Positions 544 through 57,603 of a stretch of DNA of 64,000 bases are shown here, piece by piece. Made by a program: the position numbers and the translations under genes. Source of the stretch: an uncultured Candidatus Saccharibacteria bacterium. Lineage in GTDB: Bacteria; Patescibacteriota; Minisyncoccia; UBA6257; UBA9933. The notes under the pieces are model-generated. The model searched no databases. It was not told the DNA's origin and worked only from the letters and a program-made list of their open reading frames with translations. Location of the stretch: positions 899 through 64,898 of the forward strand of contig CAZXNT010000003.1 in the NCBI GenBank assembly GCA_964642155.1, given 5' to 3'. Numbering within the stretch: the stretch's first letter is position 1; every line of letters begins with the position of its first letter.

Positions 544-2318
544 ACCTCAATCAACACCGGTAAAATCATTGGACGGCGTTTGGTTTTATTGTAGAGAAAC
601 TGGCCGATTTGATCGCGCATCATTCCTTTAATGTAATCCGCGTCCATTTGCTGTTGCCGCGGAATGCGGGAAATCATAAGTCTGATTTTTTTTCGCAAAT
701 CTTCAACAAGCTCCTTATTCTCTTTGAGATAAATGAAACCGCGGGAAATAATGTCCGGGTTTTTTAAAAAATGACCCGTGCGACGGTCCAAAGTGGCGAT
801 TATTACCACCATTCCTTCTTGCGCCAAAGCTCTTCTGTCGCGTAAAACCACTTCTCCGACATCGCCCACCCCCAATCCATCAACCATTACATAATAAGCC
901 TGCACTGTTTCTTCGGAAATTCGCGCCGCATTTTTTGACAATAATAAAATTTGACCGTTATCAATAATCGGAGTTTCTTCCGGCTTTAATTTTAATGACT
1001 CTTGCGCTAATTGAGCATTGCGCCACCTCATAAAATAATAGCCGTGGACCGGAGTATAAAATTTCGGCTTTACCATTTTCATCGCAATTTTAAGGTCTTC
1101 TTGAGGCGCGTGCCCACTAGAATGAATATCAACCATCCTTGAGTGATAAATTATTCCTCCTTGCCTAGCAATATCATCTAAAAGAATTTGAACGCTTCTT
1201 TCGTTTCCGGGAATAACTGATGAAGACAAAATTACCGTGTCTCCTTTTTTAATCTGGATCTGGCGATGTTCACCATTGATAATGCGCATCAAACTGGCAT
1301 TCGGCTCTCCTTGCGCGCCGGTGCACAATACGACAATTTTATCGTCGCGATATTTATTAATTTCTTCCAAGGGCGCGATAGTTTCTTTTTTAATTTTCAT
1401 ATATCCGAGGTTTTGGGCAATTTGAATATTGGCTTTCATTGAAAATCCGCTGATAAAAATTTTTCTGTTATGTTTTTCCGCGATTTTAATAATTTCTCCA
1501 AGCCTGTCCAAAAGAGAAGCAAATGTGGCAACAAAAATTCTGCCCTCAGCTTTTTTGAAAATTTTTTCTATTTCCGCTTCCACAACGCGCTCAGAAAGAG
1601 AATGTCCCTCCTTGTCAGCTCCGGTTGACTCAAGTAAAAGCGTATGAATTTTTTGCTTTCCAATTTTTTCCCAAGTATCCAAATTTTGAGGATTTCCTTC
1701 AATATCATAATCAATTCTAAAATCTCCGGGATGAACCATTTTGCCGACCGGCGTATCTAAAATCACGCCGATGCTATCGGGAATTGTATGCGCGGTGCTA
1801 AAAAATTCCACCTTGAAATTTTCCGATAATTGCCTGGTTTCGCCGTCTTTCACTATTTCAAAATTCAATTTCGGAGCATTTTGAAATTCTTCCTGCCGGC
1901 GATTAAGCATTTCCTTGTTAAGCATAGTGGTGTAAATCGGCGGATTGCCAATCTTTTCCATTATGTAAGGAACGGCGCCGATGTGGTCCAAATGGCCGTG
2001 AGTGATAATTAAAGCCCTAATATTTTTTTTCTTGCTTTCAAGATAAGAAGTATTGGGGATAATAAAATCAATGCCCGGAGTCGTTTCTTCCGGAAATTGC
2101 AAACCGGCGTCAATAATGACAATTTCATCGCCATATTCAAAAAACATCATATTACGGCCGATTTCTTCTAAGCCGCCCAAAGCCGCGAATTTAACCGTTG
2201 GCTCGGAATCAATTTTAGAGTCAATTTTGAAAGCTGGCTTAATAGGCCTCGCAAAAGAAGACCTTCTTGTTCTCGGCTCATAAGGCCGCTTTGTTTTTAT
2301 ATTGGTATTTGTTCTCAT
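540..2318 (-). CDS. rnj: ribonuclease J (metallo-beta-lactamase / beta-CASP RNase)
   Basis: HGHLDHIG MBL motif and beta-CASP region. The track ORF extends to 2381 but overlaps the tRNA. The internal Met (MRTNTNIK) at 2318 is the likely start. Confidence 0.85.
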   Translation of the reverse strand: MRTNTNIKTKRPYEPRTRRSSFARPIKPAFKIDSKIDSEPTVKFAALGGLEEIGRNMMFFEYGDEIVIIDAGLQFPEETTPGIDFIIPNTSYLESKKKNIRALIITHGHLDHIGAVPYIMEKIGNPPIYTTMLNKEMLNRRQEEFQNAPKLNFEIVKDGETRQLSENFKVEFFSTAHTIPDSIGVILDTPVGKMVHPGDFRIDYDIEGNPQNLDTWEKIGKQKIHTLLLESTGADKEGHSLSERVVEAEIEKIFKKAEGRIFVATFASLLDRLGEIIKIAEKHNRKIFISGFSMKANIQIAQNLGYMKIKKETIAPLEEINKYRDDKIVVLCTGAQGEPNASLMRIINGEHRQIQIKKGDTVILSSSVIPGNERSVQILLDDIARQGGIIYHSRMVDIHSSGHAPQEDLKIAMKMVKPKFYTPVHGYYFMRWRNAQLAQESLKLKPEETPIIDNGQILLLSKNAARISEETVQAYYVMVDGLGVGDVGEVVLRDRRALAQEGMVVIIATLDRRTGHFLKNPDIISRGFIYLKENKELVEDLRKKIRLMISRIPRQQQMDADYIKGMMRDQIGQFLYNKTKRRPMILPVLIEV

Positions 2319-10719: not shown

Positions 10720-12105
10720 TTAGGGAGTTAAATATCTCACAATCACAATACCCGAACCGCCAGATCCTGCCAATCCTATTGGTGAATAATATTGCGATCC
10801 ACCGCCACCGCCACCGCCAGTGTTTACAGTCCCATTAACAGCATTGCCACCGCCGTAGCTAGTGCCTCGCCCGCCACCTCCAGTTCCTCCATTTCCATAA
10901 GTTACATCTCCACATCCTCCGCCACCGCCGGCATAAACCACAGAAGAACCGGAAATTGAATATGTAATACCATTGCCTCCATTTCCACCTTGATAATTCA
11001 AGGGAGCGTTTTGACCTACTGCATTAGCTCCTCCTCCTCCTCCAGCACCGTTATAAGAAGTGCATGGTGAATAACCATTACCTCCATTATTTCCTTGTCC
11101 TGAAGTTCCACTGCCACCCGAAGTTAAACAAGCTCCTCCTCCGCCACCACTACCTCCGGCAAGCCCATTTCCAGAATGTATTCCTCCACCTCCTCCACCA
11201 ATAGCTGTTATGGAACTAAAAATAGAATTACCGCCATTTGAGCCATTTGCCCCATCATTTGCTTGACCTCCGGCGCCTACGGTTACAGAAATATTCCCCG
11301 AGGAAACAGGAAAACTGGAATTATAAACATATCCTCCAGCTCCGCCACCACCGCCCCTCATTCCACCGCCGCCTCCACCGCCGCCCACAACAAGAACTTG
11401 GACATTGCCGCTACCTGTAACTGCGAATGTTCCGTTTGATGTAAAGGTATGAACTGTAAACGCCCCATCAGTTGTTGTTGCGCCGCCAGTAGCGCTAAAA
11501 GGAGTAGACGTAGACCCTCCTCCGGAAGTATTCCATAGGGCAAGGTCAGAGCCAAGTTCAAATCTGGTATTGTCATAACCTCCGTCATTCTGGGCAATGG
11601 GAAGGTATTTAACTGATTCTATTTTAGTTGTTAGAGACCAGGAACCTGGGATATAGGCGTAATAGTAGGAACTGTTATTAATGGGATCTACTGGAAGAAT
11701 TGCCAAGGGAGGACTTGCTTGGGTGGAATTGAAATTGACGGGTATCCAGCCTGTTCCGTCTGTTTTTCTGTATTCTGATTCTGGTTTACAGGTATATGTC
11801 CAACCTGCTGTGAGAGAAGGAAGGTCGGCAGAATATAAAGAACAGTTAGCATTGGAATCCGGGAGAGATAGATAGACGGCTGAAGAAGTGCCGTAATATA
11901 GAGTGTTGGAATTGAAGGTGTAGAGTCTTATGGCGTCGTCTATGACTTTGATTTCGGAGAGACGTTTGGCGTCTCTGGATTGTTTGAGGAGTTCCGCGGG
12001 GTTGAGAACCAATATGACGACTGTGGCTAAGGTTGCCAATACACCTATGACGATGAGGAGTTCAAGGAGGGTGAAGGCGGTTTTATTAAAAAAATTTTTA
12101 TTCAT
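10720..12105 (-). CDS. prepilin-type N-terminal domain protein with long glycine-rich C-terminal region
   Basis: Class III signal (basic leader, then AFTLLELLIVIGVLA with Glu at +5). The C-terminal ~250 aa are Gly/Asn/Ser-rich repeats ending GSGIVIVRY. Confidence 0.6.
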   Translation of the reverse strand: MNKNFFNKTAFTLLELLIVIGVLATLATVVILVLNPAELLKQSRDAKRLSEIKVIDDAIRLYTFNSNTLYYGTSSAVYLSLPDSNANCSLYSADLPSLTAGWTYTCKPESEYRKTDGTGWIPVNFNSTQASPPLAILPVDPINNSSYYYAYIPGSWSLTTKIESVKYLPIAQNDGGYDNTRFELGSDLALWNTSGGGSTSTPFSATGGATTTDGAFTVHTFTSNGTFAVTGSGNVQVLVVGGGGGGGGMRGGGGGAGGYVYNSSFPVSSGNISVTVGAGGQANDGANGSNGGNSIFSSITAIGGGGGGIHSGNGLAGGSGGGGGACLTSGGSGTSGQGNNGGNGYSPCTSYNGAGGGGGANAVGQNAPLNYQGGNGGNGITYSISGSSVVYAGGGGGCGDVTYGNGGTGGGGRGTSYGGGNAVNGTVNTGGGGGGGSQYYSPIGLAGSGGSGIVIVRYLTP

Positions 12106-23854: not shown

Positions 23855-26062
23855 TTAACTTTTAGTGTCAAGCTTCAACGATAATAACTTTGACGTGCCG
23901 TCGTCGTTCATTGTGACGCCGTATAAAACATCGGCCACTTCCATTACCGCCCGATTGTGGGTAACGATGATAAATTGCGTGTCTCCGGAAAAATCTTTAA
24001 CAAGATTGGCGAACATTTGGGAATTTTTTTCGTCTAAAGGCGCGTCAATTTCGTCCAAAACCAAAAACGGCGGCGGACTAACGGAAATTAAAGCGAAAAG
24101 CGCGGCGATGGAAACCAAACTTTTTTCTCCTCCGGAAAGCATCTCCACTCCGGTAATTTTTTTTCCGGGCAAATTCAAATCAATTTCAACGCCAATTTTT
24201 TCTTCCTGTTCTTGTTCATCATTTTGATTTTCACTATTGTTTTCGTCTTCGCCGTTTTTGATTTTTGAGATTTGATTTTTGATTTTAAGCTTAGCGTGTC
24301 CTCCTTTGAACATCAATCTGAAAAAATGGTCGAATTTTTCGTTTATCGCGCGAAAAGCGTTTAAAAATTCTTTATGAATCCGCTCTTTCAAGTCCTTGAT
24401 TAAAATTTTCAAATCATCTGTCGCTTTTTCCAAATCATTAATCTGACCGGATAAAAAATTATAATGTTTTTCCGTTTCTTCGGCTTCTTTTATCAAGGAT
24501 TGGTCTATTTCGCCGATACTCGCCAATTCTCCGCGCAAACGAAGCATTTTTCGCTCCGCCTCATAAATATTCACCTCTTCGGGGTCAATATTAAAGCCTT
24601 GCGGAGGCAATAATCTAAATTCGTTTATTGACCGGCCGATTTGCTCCAACTGCGCCTCTAAATCACTTAATTTCATATCAAGTTTTTCTCGCTCAAAAAT
24701 CATCTGCTGTTTCTTATTTTCCAGCAATCTTATTTCATCGCGTTTGGCATCCATCGCTTCAAACGCTTTTTGAAATTGCTTATTAAAATCCTGCAAGCCA
24801 GCGGTAATTTCCGCTTCCATTTTTTCAACTTGTTTTAAATCGGTTTCAATCAAAACGATTTCTTTAAGCAAATCGTTTTTTATTTTAATAATGTCTTCCA
24901 ATTCTTTGGATTTTGAAAAATCAGCCGGTTTATTGTTTTTGGAATCGGAGAAAAAAACGCCTATCTTTTCCACAACGCTTTTAATGACGGCCGCGACTTC
25001 TTTCATATTTTCAAAAACAATATCATCAAGAGATTTTTTTATTTCCTTGACCAGTCGCGCTAATTCATCTCCGTTAAAAGACAATTCTTCCTTTTTTTCT
25101 TTTTCGCCGTGAAAAGAAATATCGCCGAGAATTTCCGCTTTTGCCTCCAAACGGCTTAATTCTTTTTGGATTTTAAGATGTTTACTTGATAATTCATTTT
25201 TACGGGTTTTAACGGAATCAAAATTGCCGCCTTCGGATTTTTCTTCCAATTTTCTAACATTGCTTTCCAAAATTTTTAATTCCGCGATTTTCTCCGCAAT
25301 AATTTTGGCCGTTTCTTCCAATTCCGGCTCTAATTTTTGTTTATCTTTTTCTATTCCGCTTAATTTTAAAGAAAAATATCCGTCTTCAAGATTTTTCAAT
25401 TCGGTTTCCAATTGCGCTCTTTTTTCCCATTTGACAGTCTGGCGTTTCAACATTCTTAAGCGCGGCAAAACTTCTTCAACCATCGCTTTCACTCTTTCAA
25501 GATTGATATTGGTATTATTCAGTTTTCTTTCCGCTTCTGATTTTTTGATCTGAAATTCGCGAAGACCAAGAACTTCTTCAATCATTATTCTTCTTTCTTC
25601 GGGACTCACGCGGACAAACAAATCGCTGGAACCCTGATTAATTATCGCAAGTCCTTTTGTGCCAAGCCGCGCCCGAGCGAAAAAATCAACAATATCTTTT
25701 AACCTCACTTCCGATTTATTGAGAAAATATTGGGAAGCGCCGTCGCGCGCCACGCGCCGGACAATGGAAATTTCAGGAAATTCTTCATCAACCAATTTGG
25801 AATTATTTTCAAAATTAAGAGAAACTTGCGCCATTCCCGCCCGGCTTTTTTTCGACGTACCGGCAAAAATCAAATTTTCAATTTTATCGCCCCTTAAATT
25901 TTTAGCTTCCCGTTCTCCAAAAATCCAGCGAATAGCGTCAATAATATTGCTTTTGCCGCTTCCGTTCGGACCGACAATCGCGGTAATCCCTTTTGGAAAT
26001 TCCAAAACCGCCTTTGAAGCGAATGATTTAAATCCGTTAAGTTCCAATGATTTAAGAAACAT
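23855..26062 (-). CDS. smc: SMC-family ATPase (short, apparently hinge-less)
   Basis: N-terminal FKSF...GPNGSGKSNIIDAIRW, C-terminal LSGGEKSLVSIAALFAL...LDEIDAPLD. Lies in an rnc-smc operon context. At 735 aa it is shorter than canonical SMC. Confidence 0.7.
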   Translation of the reverse strand: MFLKSLELNGFKSFASKAVLEFPKGITAIVGPNGSGKSNIIDAIRWIFGEREAKNLRGDKIENLIFAGTSKKSRAGMAQVSLNFENNSKLVDEEFPEISIVRRVARDGASQYFLNKSEVRLKDIVDFFARARLGTKGLAIINQGSSDLFVRVSPEERRIMIEEVLGLREFQIKKSEAERKLNNTNINLERVKAMVEEVLPRLRMLKRQTVKWEKRAQLETELKNLEDGYFSLKLSGIEKDKQKLEPELEETAKIIAEKIAELKILESNVRKLEEKSEGGNFDSVKTRKNELSSKHLKIQKELSRLEAKAEILGDISFHGEKEKKEELSFNGDELARLVKEIKKSLDDIVFENMKEVAAVIKSVVEKIGVFFSDSKNNKPADFSKSKELEDIIKIKNDLLKEIVLIETDLKQVEKMEAEITAGLQDFNKQFQKAFEAMDAKRDEIRLLENKKQQMIFEREKLDMKLSDLEAQLEQIGRSINEFRLLPPQGFNIDPEEVNIYEAERKMLRLRGELASIGEIDQSLIKEAEETEKHYNFLSGQINDLEKATDDLKILIKDLKERIHKEFLNAFRAINEKFDHFFRLMFKGGHAKLKIKNQISKIKNGEDENNSENQNDEQEQEEKIGVEIDLNLPGKKITGVEMLSGGEKSLVSIAALFALISVSPPPFLVLDEIDAPLDEKNSQMFANLVKDFSGDTQFIIVTHNRAVMEVADVLYGVTMNDDGTSKLLSLKLDTKS

Positions 26063-26735
26063 ATTTCAGGGCATTCTTCGCTGCTTCCACTTCCGCTTCC
26101 TGTTTTGAAGAGCCTTTGCCTTCGGCAATTAATTTATCGCCGCAATAAACGCCCACCGTAAAAATCTTGGCATGGTCCGGCCCCTTTTCGGATAAAACTT
26201 CGTAAACGGGCGTGGTTTTTGATTTCTCCTGAATTATTTCCTGAAACAAACTTTTCGGGTCCTCGTAAAGCTTGTTTTTCATCACTTCATCAAGATGATT
26301 GATAACCGTTTTTTCAATAAAATTTTTCGCTATCGCGTATCCGGCGTCAAGATAAATCGCGCCCAAAAGCGCTTCAAAAACATTCGCCAAAATAACTTCT
26401 CGCGCCTTGCCCGTGTCTTTCGCTTCTCCGCGCGAAAGCAAAATGAAATTATCCAATTCCGTTTCTTTGGCGACAATCGCAAGCATCTGGTAATTAACCA
26501 AAGCCGCCCGAATACTCGTAAGGTCGCCTTCCGGCAAATCAGGAAATCTGTTAAAAAGTCCTTCGGTCGTTGCCAATTCCAAAACCGCGTCCCCTAAAAA
26601 TTCCAAACGCTCATTATGCGGCACCCCCCATTTGGGATTTTCATTCAAATAAGAACGATGAGTTAAAGCTTCTTTAAGAAAATCCTTATTTTTGAAAACA
26701 ACGCCGATTTTATTTTCTAATTTTGTAAAATCCAC
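26052..26735 (-). CDS. rnc: ribonuclease III
   Basis: ERLEFLGDAVLEL signature plus a dsRBD. Confidence 0.9.
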   Translation of the reverse strand: MDFTKLENKIGVVFKNKDFLKEALTHRSYLNENPKWGVPHNERLEFLGDAVLELATTEGLFNRFPDLPEGDLTSIRAALVNYQMLAIVAKETELDNFILLSRGEAKDTGKAREVILANVFEALLGAIYLDAGYAIAKNFIEKTVINHLDEVMKNKLYEDPKSLFQEIIQEKSKTTPVYEVLSEKGPDHAKIFTVGVYCGDKLIAEGKGSSKQEAEVEAAKNALKYVS

Positions 26736-26811
26736 CCGAGTTAGTAATTAGGAAATAATAATCAATAACTAGGGTTTAAAAAATCATTCCCTGGTTACTA
26801 GTTACTAATTT

Positions 26812-27237
26812 CTAGTTGCTAGTTCCTATTTGTTTATACACCGTCCCCAACACTCCGTTTATGAATTTTGAAGAATTCGGGCCGCTGTAATTTTTTGCTA
26901 ATTCTATCGCTTCGTTAATCGCCACTTTCTCCGGCACTTCTTTTTTATCCGCGTATAAAAGTTCGTAAAGCCCGATACGCAAAACATTCCTGTCAACTAT
27001 GGAAATCTGGCTCAACGGCCATTCCGGAGCGGCTTTTTCAATAATTTTATCAAGAGCGTCCAAATGTTCAATAACTCCCTTAATAATTCGCCAAGCGAAA
27101 TCCGGCTCATCAACGCCACTGCCAAATTCATTAAGATTCCGTTCAACAATTTTATTTAAATCCTCTTTTTTATTGTAAAAATCCCACTCGTAAAGAGATT
27201 GAAGAACAATACTTCTTATCAAGTGCCGAGTGGCCAT
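26812..27237 (-). CDS. nusB: transcription antitermination factor NusB
   Basis: NusB fold pattern. Adjacent to rpmF. Confidence 0.8.
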
Positions 27238-27431
27238 TATTTTTTAACTCTAATTTTCGGGACTTTTACAACCTTGCCTTTATAGCTTCCACAACTTGCG
27301 CAAATTTTATGCGGTCTGTTCGGCGCCTGACAATTCTGGCAAGCAAAAATCTGACTCGGTTTTAAAGCTAAGTGCGACCGCCTGCGGCCAACTTTAGATT
27401 TAGTATGATGTTTTACCGATACGCCACCCAT
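27237..27431 (-). CDS. rpmF: 50S ribosomal protein L32 (zinc-ribbon type)
   Basis: [14 protein letters not shown] plus CxxC...CxxC. Confidence 0.8.
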
Positions 27432-27470
27432 AGTTTAATCAGTTTAATTTTAAAATTTCAAAAAGTCAAC

Positions 27471-27893
27471 TTAAACGCCGGTGCTACCGAATCCGTTTTC
27501 TCCTCTTTGGCTTTCATTTAATTCAGAAACTATTTCAATTCGCGGCTGTTCAATTTTTTGGATAAGCATTTGGGCGATTTTAGAATTCTTTTTCACAATA
27601 AAATCTTCTTGCCCCAAATTTATTAAAACAACTTTTATTTCTCCGCGATAACCCGCGTCAATCACGCCAGCCATTGTTTTAACGCCATTTTTAACGGCCA
27701 AGCCGCTTTTATCCCAAACCAATCCGACATATCCTTCGGGGATTTACATTTTAACGCCGGTTCTTATTGCTTTTCTTTCCATTGGCTTCAAAACAATGTC
27801 TTCAACCGAATAAAAATCAAGCCCCGCGTCGCCCTTCGTCGCGTAATTAGGAACCGTTGCGTCTGAATCAATTTTTAAAATTTTAATTTTCAT
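27471..27893 (-). pseudogene. dut: dUTP diphosphatase interrupted by a single in-frame TAA (at 27744..27746)
   Basis: N-terminal 49 codons (MKIKILKIDSDATVPNYATKGDAGLDF...TGVKM), then TAA, then IPEGYVGLVWDKSGLAVKNG...GVIDAGYRGEI in the same frame. Confidence 0.6.
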
Positions 27894-27942
27894 AAAAATA
27901 TTTTATAGAAAAAATAAGGGACTAACAACTATTAATTTCCAT

Positions 27943-28833
27943 TTAATTTTGAACATTTAACAATTTTTGTTTAAGTTTATGCGTATTTCCGTATTTTAAC
28001 AACCCCAAATAAGAATTAATTGATTCTATTTTCGCGTCTGCGGTTATTTTTCTAAACATTCTTCTCTTTGTAGTTGTTCTCAAAACCCTATTATGCGGAA
28101 AATTTACCCAACCGAGAAAATCGACGCCCGAATCGAACGTTTTTATGGAAACCTTATCAGGATGAAGCGAGAGTTTTAATTGTATTTCTAAAAATTTGGA
28201 TATTTTAGAGATAAGATTTTCCAAATAATTTTTATTTTCCGAAAAAATTACAAAGTCGTCGGCATAACGGATATAATAACGAATTTTTAATTCTCTTTTA
28301 ATAAAATGATCAAATTTATTCATATAAACATTTACAAAAAGCTGGCTAGTGAGATTGCCAAGCGGAAGTCCGACACCAATTTTTCCTTCGGTATTAAAAC
28401 TATCTATAATCTGCGAAAGAAGCCATAAAATATCTTTATCCTTAATATGTTTCACCAAAATATTTTTTAATATTTCGTGGTCAATACTCGCAAAAAACTT
28501 TCTGATGTCGCATTTTAAAATCCAACATGTTTTGGTGTTGTTTTCGTTTGTAATACGCGCTAATTTTCTGAATCTGTTAATCGCCTTGTGTGTACCTTTT
28601 CTTAATCGGCAAGAAAAAGAGTCCGCTATGAATTTTTTGTCAAAATACGGATATAAAATACTATAAATAGCGCGATGAACAAGCCGGTCGCGAACACTTG
28701 CTTTATGAATATCTCTCGGTTTCGGGTCGTTAATTTTAAACGCTTCGTACCCTCCGTGTTGATACGATTTTCCCGCCAATTCCCGATGAAGCGATAAAAT
28801 ATTATCCAAAAAATGCAACGAAAATTCCGCCAC
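27943..28833 (-). CDS. diversity-generating retroelement (DGR) reverse transcriptase, main body
   Basis: RT motifs PRDIHKASVRDRLV, DGR-specific LPLGNLTSQLF (I/LGxxxSQ) and YADD (RYADDFVIF). About 300 aa with no maturase or endonuclease. The N-terminal LENLLVSWREFLRGKRK segment lies upstream of an in-frame TGA at 28840..28842 (ORF 28840..29022). Confidence 0.8.
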   Translation of the reverse strand: MAEFSLHFLDNILSLHRELAGKSYQHGGYEAFKINDPKPRDIHKASVRDRLVHRAIYSILYPYFDKKFIADSFSCRLRKGTHKAINRFRKLARITNENNTKTCWILKCDIRKFFASIDHEILKNILVKHIKDKDILWLLSQIIDSFNTEGKIGVGLPLGNLTSQLFVNVYMNKFDHFIKRELKIRYYIRYADDFVIFSENKNYLENLISKISKFLEIQLKLSLHPDKVSIKTFDSGVDFLGWVNFPHNRVLRTTTKRRMFRKITADAKIESINSYLGLLKYGNTHKLKQKLLNVQN

Positions 28834-28914
28834 ATCTTTTCATTTTCTTTTCCCGCGCAAAAACTCCCGCCACGATACAAGTAAATTCTCCAAAGATATG
28901 ATATTATTAAAAGT

Positions 28915-29313
28915 ATGACGAAGCCGTCTTACTCTCTCTCTCTCTCTCTCGGGAACGCATCCATCCTTCAGCGAATCAAAGAGGGATACTTGATTTGGGT
29001 TAATATTGTTCCGCATATTCAAAGAAGTAGTCGCTACACAATCGGCGCGCGAATTGAAAATAAGTTTCTTGATTTGCTGGAATTGTCATATATCGCCTAT
29101 TTTACGGAAAAAGAAAGGAAAATTGAAGAGATTAAAAAATGTATTTTAACTCTTGATACTCTCAAATTTTTAATCTCCATTGCTTGGGAAGCGAAAATCA
29201 TTTCCAATAAACAGTATGAAGAAGTCGCAGTTAAACTGAATGAAATCGGAAAAATGTTCGGCGGATGGAAAAACAGCTTAAAAAATCCGGAAAAGAAAAA
29301 CCGCGCTTTGTAA
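28915..29313 (+). CDS. Avd-like accessory protein (four-helix-bundle / 23S rRNA intervening-sequence protein family), opposite strand
   Basis: 132 aa. C-terminal LNEIGKMFGGWKNSL resembles Bordetella bAvd EVGRILGSWI. The (CT)9 tract falls at codons 6-12. Confidence 0.55.
   Translation: MTKPSYSLSLSLGNASILQRIKEGYLIWVNIVPHIQRSSRYTIGARIENKFLDLLELSYIAYFTEKERKIEEIKKCILTLDTLKFLISIAWEAKIISNKQYEEVAVKLNEIGKMFGGWKNSLKNPEKKNRAL
28932..28950. repeat. (CT)9C dinucleotide microsatellite
   Basis: ctctctctctctctctctc seen directly. Encodes SLSLSL in avd and ERERER in the upstream RT frame. Confidence 0.9.
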
Positions 29314-29332
29314 ACGCGGAAAAGGATTGACT

Positions 29333-29465
29333 TTCGGAGACGGAAAACGAACTTGTTGTTGTCATTCCACCTGTTCGAGGGCTTGGCATTGTTGTCGTTA
29401 AGCCACAAGCCATCATCATTCCTGTTGAGGTTGAACACGTTCGGATTGCCATCGCGGGCGGTTAT
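29333..29465 (-). repeat. DGR template repeat (TR)
   Basis: ~133 bp. About 97 percent identical to the VR except at adenines (minus-strand sense). Rich in AAY codons. Confidence 0.8.
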
Positions 29466-29781
29466 GTATGCCACGCCATCCAAACCACTGCCTATTTAGT
29501 CCGTTAAAACGGAAGAAATTGGGCTGTATTTTACTCGGCATCTTCAATGCCCCAGCGCCGCACACTAAGTTAATTTCTTTTTTTAGACAAAATATACACC
29601 ACTCTGTAAGAAGCCGTAACCGCTTACATTCTCGATTTATACTTGCCAGAAAGGTTTCAAAAAGCCGTAGCCGTTTAATACAACCAATCCGTAATAATTG
29701 TATCAAAAAAATCGGAAAAAATTAAAAGAATCAAAGGATCTAAGTGTTAAAGAATCAAAAAATTATAAAAAAATAAAATTT

Positions 29782-31587
29782 CTAAGTTTTTAACTTGCGG
29801 AGACGGAAAACGAACCTGCGGTTGCCACTCCACCTGAGCGAGGGCCTGGCAATGTCGTCGTGAAGCCACAAGCCAACAGCACCCCTGAGGAGGTAGAACA
29901 CGTACGGAAAGCCATCGCGGGCGGTAATTTGCTTCATGGCGATTAATATGTAATCAGGAGTGGAATTTTGGAGGCGGAGGTTGGGGCCGGTGTCTTGCGG
30001 GCAAAGTTCCAGACCGAGTTCTTCGGATCTTTGGTAGATTTCATCAGTGGTGGCGCCGTTGGGAAAGCCGAGGTCTTTAACGGTTAAGCGAACGAGATTG
30101 AGATGTTCTTTTTTTGAGACGGTGATTTTTTTCAGCATATCCATAGCATAATCGGAGATCTTGATGTTTTTTTCTCTCAGCTCTTTTTCCAGCTGGCTTC
30201 CGTCTTTTCCCTCCAGTTCCGCTTCCATTTTCTTTACCATTCCTTCAGGAAAAGAAGTGCCGATATGTTCCAAGTTTAATTGGAATACGCCCTTGAAGAG
30301 AGGGCCGATGTAGGCCTTGGTGTTTTTGCTGATTTCTTTTTGATTGAAAACGATTTGATTTGGTTCGCATTCAAAGACAATCGGCGCGTCTTCTTGGGGA
30401 TTTCTGGCTTTGATGATTTCGGTAATGCGGGGGTCTCTTTGATAGCCGAAACCTTCTATTGGTTCGTTGATTTCATAAAGGAAGATGAGGTCTTCTTTGG
30501 TGAGCGGTTCTTTCTTTTTGGTTTTGTTGTCTATGGCGGTGAGGAACTTCATGTCGGCGGATTTTTTCTCATACGCCTTGCCGTCGGGAAATTCGGAAAG
30601 TTTGTTTTTAACAACATCATTGATATGCGGATCAAGATTTTGTTCGTGGGCAATGCCACGGATTTCGGCGATGTCCCCGCCCTGCATTCTGATGGCGGCT
30701 CTGGGAATATTCGGCTTTCCGTTTTCGTCGTAAGAGTAGTAGACGTAAAAATCTCCGGCCTGAAGCTGCGCCTCAGCTGTTGATTCTCCGGCCGTGCACC
30801 AGCCAGTGCCATGCCCTTGAAGAGAATTGACGAGAGGCATATGGTCTTTTCCTTGGCGATATTTTACCCATTCGCCTTTAGTATTAGCGAGAACTTCCTC
30901 GGAAGCCAGAGTGACTTTATCTATGGCGAAGGCGTAGAGCTTGGCGAAGTTTTCTCCTTGGAGAAGTTTTTGGAATTCGGGGTCTTGTGGCTGGATTTTT
31001 CTTTGATATTTCTTTTCAATGGCGTCAAGAACATAAGCCAGCGCCTCGCGATTGATATCGGGAAAAGGTTTGGTTGTGCCTTTGGAGCGTTTAGTAAATT
31101 GTTTCTTTTCTTTGTCGTAGTCGCCCATGTCGAGAATACTGCGGAAAGCGTAATATTTCAGCCAATCGGGATAGATGGCGTCATTTGAGGAAAGATAATC
31201 AATCCAGTTATCAAGCGAACTTTTTTGGTCGGTGATTATAACTTCGGTTAATTGCTTCCGCATTTCTTCGGATATTTCAATCTCGCCATAGCCTTGTTCG
31301 CGGGCGAGACGCCTTTGATTTTCAAAATATGCTTCGGGGACTTCTTCTTCTTTTATTACGAATTTATCGTGAAGAATGTGTTTTAACGCTTCAACGCCCC
31401 GCTCGCGCTTAGCCGGCTCTTTGCGCTCGATAATTTCCGTAAAGCGATCCAGATAGTTTTGGATTTTGGTTTCGGGGTCTTGCGGAACTTTTTCGCCTGT
31501 GCGTTTTTCTGTACGCTTCGTCGCCGACTCCACTTCCGGAGCGTTATGCAAATCGTATTTCTTTTTGAGAAAGTCTGGTTGTTCCAT
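29782..31587 (-). CDS. DGR target protein with C-terminal variable repeat (CLec/FGE-like C-terminus), no obvious signal peptide
   Basis: C-terminus ITARDGFPYVFYLLRGAVGLWLHDDIARPSLRWSGNRRFVFRLRK aligns to the TR-encoded ITARDGNPNVFNLNRNDDGLWLNDNNAKPSNRWNDNNKFVFRLRK. Confidence 0.8.
   Translation of the reverse strand: MEQPDFLKKKYDLHNAPEVESATKRTEKRTGEKVPQDPETKIQNYLDRFTEIIERKEPAKRERGVEALKHILHDKFVIKEEEVPEAYFENQRRLAREQGYGEIEISEEMRKQLTEVIITDQKSSLDNWIDYLSSNDAIYPDWLKYYAFRSILDMGDYDKEKKQFTKRSKGTTKPFPDINREALAYVLDAIEKKYQRKIQPQDPEFQKLLQGENFAKLYAFAIDKVTLASEEVLANTKGEWVKYRQGKDHMPLVNSLQGHGTGWCTAGESTAEAQLQAGDFYVYYSYDENGKPNIPRAAIRMQGGDIAEIRGIAHEQNLDPHINDVVKNKLSEFPDGKAYEKKSADMKFLTAIDNKTKKKEPLTKEDLIFLYEINEPIEGFGYQRDPRITEIIKARNPQEDAPIVFECEPNQIVFNQKEISKNTKAYIGPLFKGVFQLNLEHIGTSFPEGMVKKMEAELEGKDGSQLEKELREKNIKISDYAMDMLKKITVSKKEHLNLVRLTVKDLGFPNGATTDEIYQRSEELGLELCPQDTGPNLRLQNSTPDYILIAMKQITARDGFPYVFYLLRGAVGLWLHDDIARPSLRWSGNRRFVFRLRKLKT
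29794..29928 (-). repeat. DGR variable repeat (VR) at 3' end of target gene
   Basis: About 22 substitutions relative to TR, every one at a TR adenine. Confidence 0.8.
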
Positions 31588-32730: not shown

Positions 32731-34233
32731 TTAAAAATCAAGTGATTTATCTTGAACATAAGACAAACCTTTTTTCAGCGCTATTTCCGCTTTTTGAAGT
32801 TCTGCGCCAACATCAAGCAAATGGTCCGGCCGGCTCAAAATCTCCAATTGAGCGATTTTTTTCATTATTTCCTTGGCGGTTTTAGCGTTAAAGCTCAATA
32901 ACTCCTCTCCTTGCGGTCCCTGAAAAACAGCCGAGATTTCTTCATTCTTCACATTAATCACCAGATATCCCCTTGGGTCTCTTTGAGTTTTCTCATCAAA
33001 AATCAAATTTGGCTCCCTTTCCCAAAACGCGCACTTCACCAATTGAGAAGCATTATTCCAATCTTGCTCATAAATATGAGCTGATTCAGAAGTAATTTTA
33101 AGTTGTCCCAATTCAAAACCCAATTCCTGACTTACCTTTTTTTGCAAAGTCCGCAAACCAAAAGCATTCGGAATCGCGCCCTTGAAAATATCATGGCTTC
33201 TAACCGTCGCTAAAAAATGAAGCTTGCCATTGCTTTGAAGCGCCTGTATCTGAGTGATGCATGGTGACTCTTTTGAAAAAGCATCAATTTCCGGCACCAA
33301 TGTTGTCGCCACGGCGCGCCGTGAATCCGGAGAATCTCTAAGCTGTTTAATAATTACCTCTTTAATCTGATCCAAATTTCCATCACTTAGAGGATATTTC
33401 ATCAAACGATTTCCATAAGTATAAGAGATTCCGGCGGGCGGTTCTGGCGATAAAAAAACCGAATAGTATTCTTTAAGGTCTTTTTCAATCGCACCCGTAA
33501 CTTTTTGCAATTCTTCCGGCCATTCTAAGACCAATGACAAGTCCGGTTCATCCGGGTCTTCATCACTTATCACCCAAGTTACTCCAATCAATTCCCTTTG
33601 TTGATAACCATATTGTGTTCCTTTAATCAAACCGTATCTCATAATTCTTTCAACCACTCTTAACCATGCTTCAACGATTGTTTTCCCGCGCACCAACCAA
33701 CCGACTTCTTCCGAAGGAAATGTTTCCACCTCTTCTAAAATAGCGTCAGAAAATTTTATTGGCTCCATATATGATTCGCCGGCTATCTTTGTATCTTTAA
33801 TATATTTTTCCGCTTCTTCAAATGAAAGATGGCTTATGTCAATCAACTCAACGTTACTGATAATCTTTTTCACAATTTCTATATCAATTTCTTTTTCCAG
33901 TTTGAATTTTGTGCCCTTTACGAAACCGTCAGAATCAATACCTTCTTTCCAGATTTTTTCAATTAACGATTTTCCCATTAAACCGAATTGAGTGTTGGAA
34001 AGCCCGCCGTTGCCCCAGATAAAAAATTTTCTAATCTGAGGATTTAAGGCCAAGTTGCGGAAAATTACATTAACTCCGGAACGACTATAAAGCGTGCCCA
34101 AAATTGCGGTTTTTTCCTGCAAAACTTTGGATTTATTAAAAACCGCCTCAGCTTCATTCCAAATAGTGCAAAAGCCTAAAGATTTCCCGCTTCCTAAAAA
34201 CACTTTGTATTTTTCCGGCTGATAAAGATTCAT
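32731..34233 (-). CDS. thymidylate synthase (ThyA)-fold protein with ~190-aa N-terminal and ~120-aa C-terminal extensions
   Basis: Core RRAVATTLVP...SPCITQIQALQ...LHFLATVRSHDIFKGAIPNAFG...SESAHIY matches the ThyA/dCMP-hydroxymethylase catalytic Cys-Pro and R..D motifs. At 500 aa it is about twice canonical length. Confidence 0.55.
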   Translation of the reverse strand: MNLYQPEKYKVFLGSGKSLGFCTIWNEAEAVFNKSKVLQEKTAILGTLYSRSGVNVIFRNLALNPQIRKFFIWGNGGLSNTQFGLMGKSLIEKIWKEGIDSDGFVKGTKFKLEKEIDIEIVKKIISNVELIDISHLSFEEAEKYIKDTKIAGESYMEPIKFSDAILEEVETFPSEEVGWLVRGKTIVEAWLRVVERIMRYGLIKGTQYGYQQRELIGVTWVISDEDPDEPDLSLVLEWPEELQKVTGAIEKDLKEYYSVFLSPEPPAGISYTYGNRLMKYPLSDGNLDQIKEVIIKQLRDSPDSRRAVATTLVPEIDAFSKESPCITQIQALQSNGKLHFLATVRSHDIFKGAIPNAFGLRTLQKKVSQELGFELGQLKITSESAHIYEQDWNNASQLVKCAFWEREPNLIFDEKTQRDPRGYLVINVKNEEISAVFQGPQGEELLSFNAKTAKEIMKKIAQLEILSRPDHLLDVGAELQKAEIALKKGLSYVQDKSLDF

Positions 34234-57587: not shown

Positions 57588-57603
57588 GGGGGGGGTGGGG
57601 GGG
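57588..57603. repeat. homopolymeric G8-T-G7 tract
   Basis: ggggggggtggggggg seen directly, ~85 bp upstream of the XRE gene. Confidence 0.9.

What the first reader, a model, noticed from the sequence alone, without database searches (positions are those of the whole stretch)
27943..31587. Complete diversity-generating retroelement: target with VR, TR, Avd-like gene and DGR-type RT
The last ~44 codons of the 601-aa gene (VR ~29794..29928) align to a non-coding-looking copy 330 bp downstream (TR ~29333..29465). About 22 positions differ, and every one is an adenine in the TR copy on the minus/coding strand. Examples are AAT/AAC codons in TR versus TTT, TAC, CTC, GGT, CAC and CGC in VR. This is the adenine-specific mutagenesis signature of DGRs. 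The adjacent RT carries the DGR-specific I/LGxxxSQ motif (LPLGNLTSQLF) and YADD. A four-helix-bundle Avd-like ORF lies between TR and RT. The target has no obvious signal peptide. The cassette is embedded in a nucleotide-metabolism operon (thyA-like, tmk, dcd, dut).
Basis: partly seen in the sequence, partly recalled or inferred. Interest (0 to 1): 0.85.

Follow-up and report, generated by a model that had tools for sequence, protein, structure and literature searches.

The report
Patescibacterial DGR with a broken RT
This is a genuine diversity-generating retroelement of the type common in tiny "candidate phyla radiation" bacteria, but this copy's reverse transcriptase carries a stop codon; comparing it with relatives shows a conserved structured RNA in front of the template and a slippery repeat that shifts the accessory gene in and out of frame.

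Summary
TR (29327-29465) and VR (29790-29928), both on the minus strand, differ at 24 of 139 positions, and 23 of these are TR adenines. The RT is most similar to the Bordetella DGR RT. The Avd ORF matches the bAvd family, and the VR lies in a C-type-lectin fold. The layout TR-(avd, opposite strand)-RT is the published "B3" architecture typical of CPR bacteria, so this is a new member of a known kind.

It is not functionally complete. The RT has an in-frame TGA (28840-28842) where 31 relatives have Arg or Lys, and two sequencing runs show the same TGA and the same VR. The cassette is probably frozen.

Comparison with about 100 related loci added three points:
- A ~225-nt leader RNA 5' of the TR has very strong covariation. 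It is bracketed by a promoter-like box and a terminator, and it is absent from Rfam.
- A (TC)n or poly-C tract lies just after the avd start codon in 55 of 59 modules. It changes length between otherwise identical strains and shifts avd in and out of frame.
- The target belongs to a large, unnamed Patescibacteria family with a GNAT-like fold.

A related lineage shows VR alleles that differ almost only at TR adenines.

The parts
29782..31587 (-). Target gene, 601 aa. Member of a large unnamed Patescibacteria protein family. No signal peptide or membrane segment by inspection.
   Evidence: ORF. 2293 homologs, best 78% identical over full length, no Pfam domain. At least 207 species genomes. AlphaFold model pLDDT 83.
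30655..30876 (-). Approximate region (residues ~238-311) with a GNAT-like acyltransferase fold. It contains the invariant motif QGHGTGWCTAG (30787-30819).
29785..30405 (-). C-terminal domain (residues 395-601) with a C-type-lectin/FGE-like fold that carries the VR.
29790..29928 (-). Variable repeat (VR), the last 46 codons of the target.
29711..29781 (-). Degenerate CTTTGR-type repeats immediately 3' of the VR and stop codon (weak in this window, clearer in relatives). Candidate target-side cis element.
   Evidence: The repeats follow the VR in both direct and inverted arrangements of the TR module. Function is not tested.
29697..29705 (-). Extended -10 promoter-like box (TGATACAAT), the presumed promoter of the TR RNA.
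   Evidence: Consensus TTTTTGnTATAaT is conserved at this position in 30 or more modules, including inverted ones. Promoter function is inferred.
29466..29690 (-). Structured leader of the TR RNA, seven helices: H1 29670-29678/29657-29665; H2 29634-29643/29591-29600; H3 29618-29628/29605-29615; H4 29554-29565/29466-29477; H5 29547-29550/29538-29541; H6 29522-29524/29490-29492; H7 29516-29518/29495-29497. Invariant ACTT(G/A)GT at 29564-29570.
   Evidence: Alignment A3 of 33 modules. RNAalifold: 50 pairs, 44 with compensatory changes. 92.7% of cells paired against 72.8% shuffled and 39-48% slid, 0/500 shuffles reach the observed value. Coordinates. No Rfam family matches.
29327..29465 (-). Template repeat (TR), 43 adenines.
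29291..29326 (-). Short pyrimidine-rich trailer, then an intrinsic-terminator-like hairpin (29301-29319) and T-run (29291-29300). The avd stop codon lies in the hairpin loop on the other strand.
   Evidence: Terminator scan. A hairpin plus T-run is at the same place in all modules read, with different stem sequences between clades.
28915..29313 (+). avd (accessory variability determinant), 132 aa from the conserved ATG, antisense to TR, RT and target.
   Evidence: Pfam PF22296 E=5e-17. NCBIfam DivGenRetAVD E=7e-20 but below the curated cut-off, 71.3 < 80 bits. avd and RT are divergent in every locus that has both.
28932..28950 (.). Simple-sequence tract, (CT)9C on the avd strand and (GA)n on the RT strand, 17 nt after the avd ATG. 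In this window the ATG is in frame with Avd.
   Evidence: It is the only dinucleotide repeat of 10 nt or more in the 64-kb window. A tract is present in 55/59 modules. 26 of 27 such tracts in 834 kb lie at this junction. Length differs between otherwise identical strains.
27943..29022 (-). DGR-type reverse transcriptase reading frame. The conserved core starts near 28917. The true start codon is unresolved.
   Evidence: RVT_1 E=1e-23. The best solved relative is the Bordetella bRT 8ub7, E=6e-42, against about 5e-20 for the next best solved RT chains (group II/retron-type). Motifs LGNLTSQ and YADD.
28840..28842 (-). In-frame TGA nonsense codon in the RT (...RGKRK*KDVAEF...).
   Evidence: The other 31 RTs have Arg (29, including CGA in 4) or Lys (2) here. 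TGA is a normal stop in this genome. Identical in a second run.

Best explanation
The locus is a chromosomal diversity-generating retroelement of the Patescibacteria (CPR) clade with the published B3 layout: target-VR ... TR - (avd on the opposite strand) - RT.

How it most likely works:
1. A discrete non-coding RNA of about 400 nt is made from its own extended -10 promoter. It ends at an intrinsic terminator about 25 nt after the TR (inferred).
2. Its 225-nt 5' leader folds into seven helices, one of which ends at the TR's 5' edge (the structure is shown by covariation). The leader probably recruits and positions the RT-Avd complex, the role played in Bordetella phage by the spacer 3' of the TR (inferred).
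3. RT-Avd copies the TR into cDNA and misincorporates opposite adenines. The cDNA replaces the VR (inferred from the adenine-only mismatch signature here; relatives with one TR carry several VR alleles that differ at TR adenines).
4. The 24 variable codons lie in a C-type-lectin fold at the C-terminus of a conserved, apparently cytoplasmic protein that also has a GNAT-like fold, so the element retunes a binding surface of that protein.
5. A hypermutable (TC)n or poly-C tract a few codons into avd shifts avd in or out of frame by slippage. This would make mutagenesis itself phase-variable (length changes and frame consequences are shown; the regulatory effect is inferred).

In this genome avd is in frame, but the RT carries a CGA-to-TGA type nonsense codon. 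This copy is therefore most likely switched off permanently and its VR frozen.
For: Adenine-specific TR/VR mismatches: 23/24, about 3e-11. TR codon design. RT closest to bRT. Avd family matches. CLec fold of the VR domain. The same module is found in about 36 of 71 species-level loci and in about 35 metagenome loci, always with avd and RT divergent. B3 = TR-(avd)-RT accounts for 90% of CPR DGRs in Wu et al. (PMC5758913). Leader covariation. Terminator. Tract statistics: 55/59 modules carry one; the ATG is in frame in 4/4 tract-less modules and in 16/55 tract-bearing ones. The ten codons after the tract have codon-position entropy 0.76/0.44/1.15, a coding signature. Strain-level length change: one CT unit is the only difference in 5.3 kb, and C8-C13 occur within six clonal groups. 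Activity in relatives: one TR, four VR alleles, 31 of 32 variable columns at TR adenines. RT nonsense codon: of 31 full-length RTs including the window's, the other 30 are uninterrupted; the stop and the VR are identical in two runs.
Against: No read-level data were available, so neither VR heterogeneity nor the allele frequency of the TGA in this population is known. Two consensus assemblies from sibling samples are weak evidence for a frozen VR. The RT start codon is unresolved, and a GTG lies two codons after the TGA, so reinitiation cannot be excluded. The promoter and RNA ends are predicted only. The role of the leader is by analogy. Only about 29% of tract-bearing modules are in frame, no better than chance, so most assembled copies would lack full-length Avd if the ATG is the only start. 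Homopolymer lengths in short-read assemblies can carry errors. I could not read the primary CPR DGR paper (Paul et al. 2017), so some of these features may already be described.
Confidence: 0.85

Rival explanations
1. The cassette is still active. The TGA may be bypassed by reinitiation at the GTG at 28831-28833 or by readthrough, it may be a minority or transient allele, or a second RT elsewhere in the genome may act on this TR in trans.
For: A GTG lies two codons after the TGA. avd is in frame and every other part is intact. At least one relative (L078) keeps the TR and leader with no RT or avd within 6 kb, which hints at trans action or recent loss.
Against: Reinitiation would remove about 25 conserved N-terminal residues that align with bRT residues 11-35. 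The position is Arg or Lys in all other RTs. TGA is a normal stop here and no suppressor tRNA is in the window. The same stop and the same VR appear in two runs.
Confidence: 0.2
2. The (TC)n/poly-C tract is not an on/off switch for Avd. It could be a slippage-prone spacer in the shared divergent promoter region that tunes transcription of avd and/or RT, or a neutral by-product, with Avd translated from a start that does not depend on the tract.
For: The in-frame fraction (16/55) equals the random expectation. Gene callers usually start Avd at a TTG after the tract. On the RT strand the purine tract sits just upstream of a proximal RT ATG in several loci, like part of a ribosome-binding region. 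The arrangement recalls repeat tracts between divergent promoters in other bacteria (my knowledge).
Against: The ten codons between the tract and that TTG show a coding pattern in the avd frame, and there is no ATG, GTG or TTG between the tract and that conserved stretch. All four tract-less modules have the conserved ATG in frame. The tract type changes between (TC)n and poly-C but its position is kept.
Confidence: 0.3
3. The repeat pair is an ordinary duplication next to an unrelated retron or group II intron RT, not a DGR.
For: The NCBIfam best hit for the RT is the group II RT/maturase model, far below its cut-off (142 of 300 bits).
Against: Mismatches are restricted to adenines of one copy. 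Avd is present. bRT is by far the best solved relative. No group II intron or retron RNA was found by Rfam. The same TR/VR/avd/RT unit recurs in dozens of genomes.
Confidence: 0.01

Closest known systems
CPR/Patescibacteria DGRs, architecture B3 'TR-(avd)-RT' (Wu et al. 2018, PMC5758913; Paul et al. 2017, not readable here) = DGR clade 2 of Roux et al. 2021 (PMC8144416)
   Same: Same host group, same order and orientation of TR, avd and RT, chromosomal location, and a target with no recognisable domain or membrane segment.
   Different: This copy has a nonsense codon in the RT. The 5' leader RNA, the terminator right after the TR, the tract in avd, and the size and fold of the target family are not mentioned in the papers I could read. 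Whether they are described elsewhere is unknown.
Bordetella phage BPP-1 DGR (mtd-VR, avd, TR, brt)
   Same: RT homologous to bRT (E=6e-42), Avd family, TR of about 135 nt with AAY codons, adenine-specific mutagenesis signature, VR at the C-terminus in a C-type-lectin fold.
   Different: avd is on the opposite strand and lies between TR and RT. The conserved structured RNA lies 5' of the TR, whereas in BPP-1 the known structure (Rfam RT-10, the spacer) lies 3' of the TR (PMC5737381). Only a terminator follows the TR here. There is no GC-rich hairpin after the VR in this window. The target is a cellular, apparently cytoplasmic protein, not a phage tail fibre.
Simple-sequence contingency loci (poly-G/C or short repeats in the 5' coding region of phase-variable genes in Neisseria, Haemophilus, Campylobacter; e.g. 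PMC4965091, PMC3315296)
   Same: A homopolymer or dinucleotide tract a few codons after the start codon, length differing between clonal isolates, and only one phase in three in frame.
   Different: The gene controlled is an accessory factor of a mutagenesis machine, not a surface structure, and the hosts are CPR bacteria. Switching rates and the expression effect are untested.
DGR variable proteins with solved structures (Treponema TvpA 2y3c, Bordetella Mtd 1yu0) and FGE-type CLec enzymes (EgtB, SenA, SUMF2)
   Different: No detectable sequence similarity. The N-terminal 390 residues are unrelated.
GNAT acyltransferases
   Different: No sequence-level match in Pfam, NCBIfam or PDB profile searches. 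The motif loop is modelled with low confidence. No evidence of catalysis.

Membership tests
Diversity-generating retroelement (DGR) | TR/VR repeat pair whose differences are confined to adenines of the TR | tested here: met
   23 of 24 mismatches at TR adenines, about 3e-11. The one exception is at the extreme 3' end of the repeat.
Diversity-generating retroelement (DGR) | Reverse transcriptase of the DGR type (motif I/LGxxxSQ; closest to known DGR RTs) | tested here: met
   LGNLTSQ and YADD are present. The best solved relative is Bordetella bRT, E=6e-42, 147 bits, against 75 bits for the next. No formal phylogeny was run.
Diversity-generating retroelement (DGR) | Uninterrupted RT reading frame (needed for an active element) | tested here: not met
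   In-frame TGA at 28840-28842.
Diversity-generating retroelement (DGR) | Accessory protein Avd | tested here: met
   Pfam bAvd E=5e-17, above the gathering score. NCBIfam DivGenRetAVD E=7e-20 but 71.3 bits, below the 80-bit cut-off.
Diversity-generating retroelement (DGR) | VR at the 3' end of a gene, in a C-type-lectin (or Ig) fold | tested here: met
Diversity-generating retroelement (DGR) | IMH/IMH* at the 3' ends of VR/TR and a hairpin after the VR | tested here: inconclusive
   The 3' 40 nt of the repeat are identical except for one A-to-C change, then VR and TR diverge. No GC-rich hairpin follows the VR in the window. Phased CTTTGR repeats occur there instead. Function is not testable here.
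Diversity-generating retroelement (DGR) | Ongoing VR diversification in the population | not testable with these tools
   No read-level access. Two consensus assemblies have identical VRs. A related lineage shows four VR alleles differing at TR adenines.
DGR architecture B3 (Wu et al. 2018) | Order TR - avd on the reverse strand - RT | tested here: met
   Coordinates and strands. Definition in PMC5758913.
Simple-sequence contingency (phase-variable) locus | Repeat tract inside the 5' coding region, with reading frame dependent on tract length | tested here: met
   Conserved ATG, then the tract, then conserved Avd codons with a coding signature and no intervening start codon.
Simple-sequence contingency (phase-variable) locus | Tract length varies among otherwise identical strains | tested here: met
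   (CT)8C versus (CT)7C is the only difference in 5324 nt. C8-C13 occur within six clonal groups. This is shown for relatives; this strain's two samples both have 19 nt.
Simple-sequence contingency (phase-variable) locus | Reversible high-frequency switching that changes expression | not testable with these tools
   Needs read-level tract distributions or experiments.
Rfam RT-associated RNA motifs (RT-1 to RT-19, incl. RT-10 of Bordetella DGR) | Match to the covariance model at or near the gathering score | tested here: not met
   Only a 21.7-bit local hit to RT-7 (gathering score 116.8) in the window. Nothing in the same region of nine relatives at E<=1.
GNAT acyltransferase superfamily | Sequence-profile membership and a CoA-binding motif in the right structural position | tested here: inconclusive

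The most novel reading that the evidence does not exclude
In this whole clade of CPR DGRs, hypermutation is itself under a hypermutable switch. A (TC)n or poly-C tract in the first codons of avd flips Avd, and in some lineages perhaps the RT, between in-frame and out-of-frame states on a time scale as fast as VR turnover. Only a fraction of cells would then diversify their target at any time. In addition, the template RNA uses a structured 5' leader plus a 3' terminator instead of the 3' spacer of the Bordetella paradigm, which implies a different way of recruiting and priming the RT.
Probability: 0.45. Interest if true: 0.75.

Novelty: new member of a known kind. Interest (0 to 1): 0.55.

Why it matters
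The locus itself is one more CPR DGR, and probably a dead one. Its value is as an entry point to a very large, well-sampled family.

The family has hundreds of species-level copies with one conserved target protein. One lineage has natural VR alleles, and there is an apparently RT-null allele (this window) for comparison.

The covariation-supported leader gives a concrete RNA to test for RT-Avd binding and priming in the B3 architecture, for which the papers I could read describe no RNA structure.

If the tract in avd is functional, it would be a simple answer to how cells limit the cost of self-mutagenesis.

The target is a conserved, apparently cytoplasmic protein with GNAT-like and C-type-lectin folds, present with and without a DGR. 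That bears on the open question raised by Roux et al. 2021 of whether CPR DGR targets are genuinely non-membrane proteins.

Tried and rejected
1. The Rfam RT-7 hit in the VR-TR spacer was not reproduced in nine relatives, so it was chance.
2. The different Avd protein lengths within 90% clusters (107/115/132/156 aa) looked like evidence of tract variation. They turned out mostly to be different gene-caller start choices on identical DNA, so only DNA-level comparisons were used.
3. The idea that one tract phase puts both avd and a long RT ORF in frame held in the first locus set. In the poly-C lineage, however, the long RT calls occur in avd-out-of-frame states. It is not general, and the RT start remains unresolved.
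4. Pairing between the A-rich leader segment and the U-rich trailer after the TR is seen in many loci but is low-complexity and only -2.4 kcal/mol in the window. Not claimed.
5. L153/L190 (C10 vs C11 with near-identical 60-nt flanks) are not the same strain over longer distances.
6. Sequence searches for the target gave nothing: Pfam at E<=10, NCBIfam, PDB by sequence and by profile.
7. A recoded genetic code as an explanation for the TGA was rejected: TGA ends 4 of 36 long ORFs, and the second interrupted gene uses TAA.
8. The tblastn of dUTPase against phage genomes was uninformative.
9. The primary CPR DGR paper (Paul et al. 2017) is not held.


Full report
**Observation.** The window contains a 139-nt direct repeat, 29327-29465 and 29790-29928, at 83% identity. 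On the minus strand, which is the coding strand of the 601-aa ORF 29782-31587, the two copies differ at 24 positions. In 23 of them the downstream copy has A and the gene copy has T (9), G (8) or C (6). The remaining C/T difference is three bases from the 3' end of the repeat. The downstream copy has 43 A in 139 nt, so this pattern has a probability of about 3e-11 by chance (my binomial arithmetic). Read in the gene's frame, that copy has 12 AAY codons, and its adenines lie at codon positions 1/2/3 = 20/20/3. That allows about 5e22 peptides over 24 variable codons. No other copy of the repeat exists in the 64 kb.

**The parts.**
- RT: the reading frame 27943-29022(-) matches RVT_1 (E=1e-23) and carries LGNLTSQ and YADD. 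Its best solved relative by a wide margin is the Bordetella phage DGR RT (8ub7, E=6e-42, 147 bits). Group II and retron-type RTs score about 75 bits.
- Avd: ORF 28915-29313 matches Pfam bAvd (E=5e-17) and NCBIfam DivGenRetAVD (E=7e-20, slightly below the curated cut-off). It lies on the plus strand, antisense to target, TR and RT.

**Not complete.** The RT frame contains an in-frame TGA at 28840-28842 (...RGKRK*KDVAEF...). Of 31 full-length RTs of this clade including the window's, the other 30 are uninterrupted. At this codon the 31 related RTs have Arg (29, including CGA in 4) or Lys (2). A single C-to-T change explains the stop. TGA is a normal stop in this genome (4 of 36 long ORFs), and the window holds no suppressor-like tRNA. 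The stop is not an assembly accident. A Logan assembly of SRR13723396 is identical to the window over 12.3 kb. A contig from a second run, SRR13723394, is identical over 25792-30645, including the TGA, the 19-nt tract, the TR and the VR. Read-level data are still needed.

**Family context.** The target belongs to a very large family. There are 2293 hits, the best 120 at 56-78% identity over the full length, all unnamed. At least 207 species-representative genomes across Parcubacteria, Microgenomates and Berkelbacteria lineages carry it. The N-terminal 550 residues are highly conserved, with invariant motifs such as GHGTGWCTAG. The last 45 residues are hypervariable on a fixed scaffold. Of 71 species-level loci that include the C-terminus:
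- 36 have a TR/VR pair with almost purely adenine mismatches;
- 16 have none within 3 kb on either side;
- 19 cannot be judged.

Wherever avd and RT are both present they are divergent, and the TR sits next to the 3' end of avd on the RT strand. In several genomes the whole TR-avd-RT unit is inverted relative to the target. This is the "B3" architecture, TR-(avd)-RT. Wu et al. report it for 90% of CPR DGRs and almost nowhere else (PMC5758913). Roux et al. place CPR elements in their DGR clade 2 and note that their targets lack recognisable domains (PMC8144416). The cassette occurs in unrelated neighbourhoods in relatives, so its position among nucleotide-metabolism genes here is incidental. 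The finding is therefore a new member of a known kind.

**The template RNA.** The ~240 nt upstream of the TR are conserved in all modules, including the inverted ones, so they belong to the TR unit and not to the target. The block starts with an extended -10-like box (TTTTTGnTATAaT; window 29697-29705). An alignment of 33 non-redundant modules gives an RNAalifold structure of 50 pairs in seven helices, and 44 pairs keep pairing through changes on both sides. With the controls:
- 92.7% of cells are paired, against 72.8% in shuffles and 39-48% when partners are slid;
- there are 380 double-sided changes, against 121 in shuffles and 63-109 slid;
- 0 of 500 shuffles reach the observed value on any measure.

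Two hairpins share the loop CGGYTACGGCTT. A 12-bp long-range helix pairs the bases after an invariant ACTTGGT with the bases immediately 5' of the TR (window 29554-29565 with 29466-29477). About 25 nt after the TR, every module has a stem-loop followed by a T-run, with different stem sequences in different clades. The avd stop codon lies in its loop on the other strand. Promoter, leader, TR and terminator thus define a discrete RNA of about 400 nt. No Rfam family matches the leader in the window or in nine relatives. The one DGR RNA motif in Rfam, RT-10, is the Bordetella spacer located 3' of the TR (PMC5737381). That the leader is the RT-Avd docking and priming scaffold is an inference by analogy.

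**The repeat tract in avd.** Between the divergent avd and RT genes the window has (CT)9C at 28932-28950, the only dinucleotide repeat of 10 nt or more in 64 kb. At the same place, 55 of 59 unique modules carry either (TC)n of 8-43 nt (39), poly-C of 8-12 nt (14) or both (2). In 834 kb of related loci, 26 of the 27 long tracts of these kinds lie at this junction.

On the avd strand the order is a conserved ATG, 16-20 nt, the tract, then conserved Avd codons. The ATG is the reverse complement of a conserved RT His codon. The ten codons after the tract vary mainly at third positions (entropy 0.76/0.44/1.15), and no start codon intervenes. The tract therefore lies inside the avd coding region. 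All four tract-less modules have the ATG in frame. Of the tract-bearing ones, 16 are in frame (all with open ORFs) and 39 are not.

Strain-level comparisons show that the tract changes faster than anything around it:
- Twelve copies of a Buchananbacteria locus from different samples are identical over 5.3 kb, except that one has (CT)7C instead of (CT)8C. That moves the ATG out of frame into a TAA.
- Among 30 copies of a poly-C lineage, six clonal groups (at most 2 mismatches in 900 nt or more of flanks) each contain several lengths between C8 and C13, and only C9 and C12 are in frame.

Sampling there was biased by the protein form used to fetch contigs, so no ON/OFF ratio can be given. I found no paper linking DGRs with simple-sequence phase variation, but the library is incomplete. 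A real regulatory effect is inferred, not shown. The random in-frame fraction is equally compatible with a tract that matters little. In the window avd is in frame.

**Activity in relatives.** In one sub-lineage of the poly-C group, 13 loci from different samples share one TR but carry four VR alleles. Of the 32 columns that differ between alleles, 31 are TR adenines. Each allele occurs with both in-frame and out-of-frame tract states. The sister sub-lineage has a single VR allele with 6 non-adenine mismatches and looks frozen. Elements of this clade are therefore active in nature, which makes the RT-null state of the window copy meaningful.

**Mechanism and confidence.** That this is a DGR of the CPR B3 type is close to certain. 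That this copy is currently inactive is likely (about 0.65 to 0.7) but rests on a nonsense codon and two identical consensus VRs. That the leader is the functional RNA scaffold is plausible. That the tract is a true phase switch I put near 0.45. What the target protein does is unknown. The best-supported reading is a conserved intracellular protein with an acyltransferase-like core, whose C-terminal lectin-fold surface is retuned by the DGR. The GNAT assignment is at fold level only.

Noticed in passing
window 27471-27893 (-), stop at 27744-27746: The neighbouring dUTPase also has an in-frame nonsense codon (TAA, ...GVKM*IPEGY...) yet matches the full-length Pfam profile. A relative has Glu there. 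The stop is present in both sequencing runs. That makes two nonsense mutations in adjacent genes within 1.1 kb.
   Followed up: partly
window 29711-29781 and the 100 nt after the VR in L002, L010, L019, L023, L028, L032, L062-L064, L067, L070, L079: Four to eight CTTTGR motifs phased at about 10-11 nt follow the VR and stop codon, in both direct and inverted arrangements of the TR module. Several DGR-less homologs (L021, L029, L057, L058, L076) have them too. They could be a target-site recognition element or a regulator-binding array.
   Followed up: partly
window 57588-57603: Two adjacent poly-G runs (G8 and G7), unusual for a 37% GC genome, about 180 nt downstream of a tRNA-Gln. This may be another slippage-prone site.
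   Followed up: no
L078:4804-5441: Target with VR, conserved leader, TR and terminator, but no avd or RT within 6 kb. Either an orphan template RNA gene served in trans or a recent loss of the enzymes.
   Followed up: partly
L005:1980-2430: avd begins 79 nt after the target stop with no TR or spacer. This is consistent with deletion of the VR-TR interval by recombination between the two repeats.
   Followed up: no
L008:7712-7896 and 10818-11002: A 185-nt stretch including the VR is present twice, identically, 3.1 kb apart and upstream of the avd/RT pair. This may be two target genes or a recent duplication.
   Followed up: no
L239:378-701(+) and 1598-1921(-): Two 107-aa bAvd genes in opposite orientation within 1.6 kb on one short contig.
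   Followed up: no
L003:4416-4676: An 86-aa GIY-YIG nuclease-domain ORF sits between the TR and the 3' end of avd in this relative.
   Followed up: no
L209-L220 (e.g. L210:3448-5365): In the Buchananbacteria lineage the target homolog is called as two overlapping ORFs (330 aa and 314/317 aa) instead of one ~600-aa gene.
   Followed up: no
window 32731-34233 (-): A 500-aa protein combining a partial thymidylate-synthase domain with a C-terminal PterinBD-DUF4346 domain and a long N-terminal extension. An unusual ThyA-like fusion.
   Followed up: no
L035:121-254 (-): AdoCbl riboswitch-like match at 46.7 bits, just under the gathering score of 50.
   Followed up: no
window 29575-29585 with 29320-29330, and equivalents in relatives: The conserved A-rich leader segment (AAAAAGAAA) is complementary to the conserved U-rich trailer after the TR (UUUUCUUU) in many loci. 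Pairing would bracket the TR, but it is low-complexity and weak in the window.
   Followed up: partly
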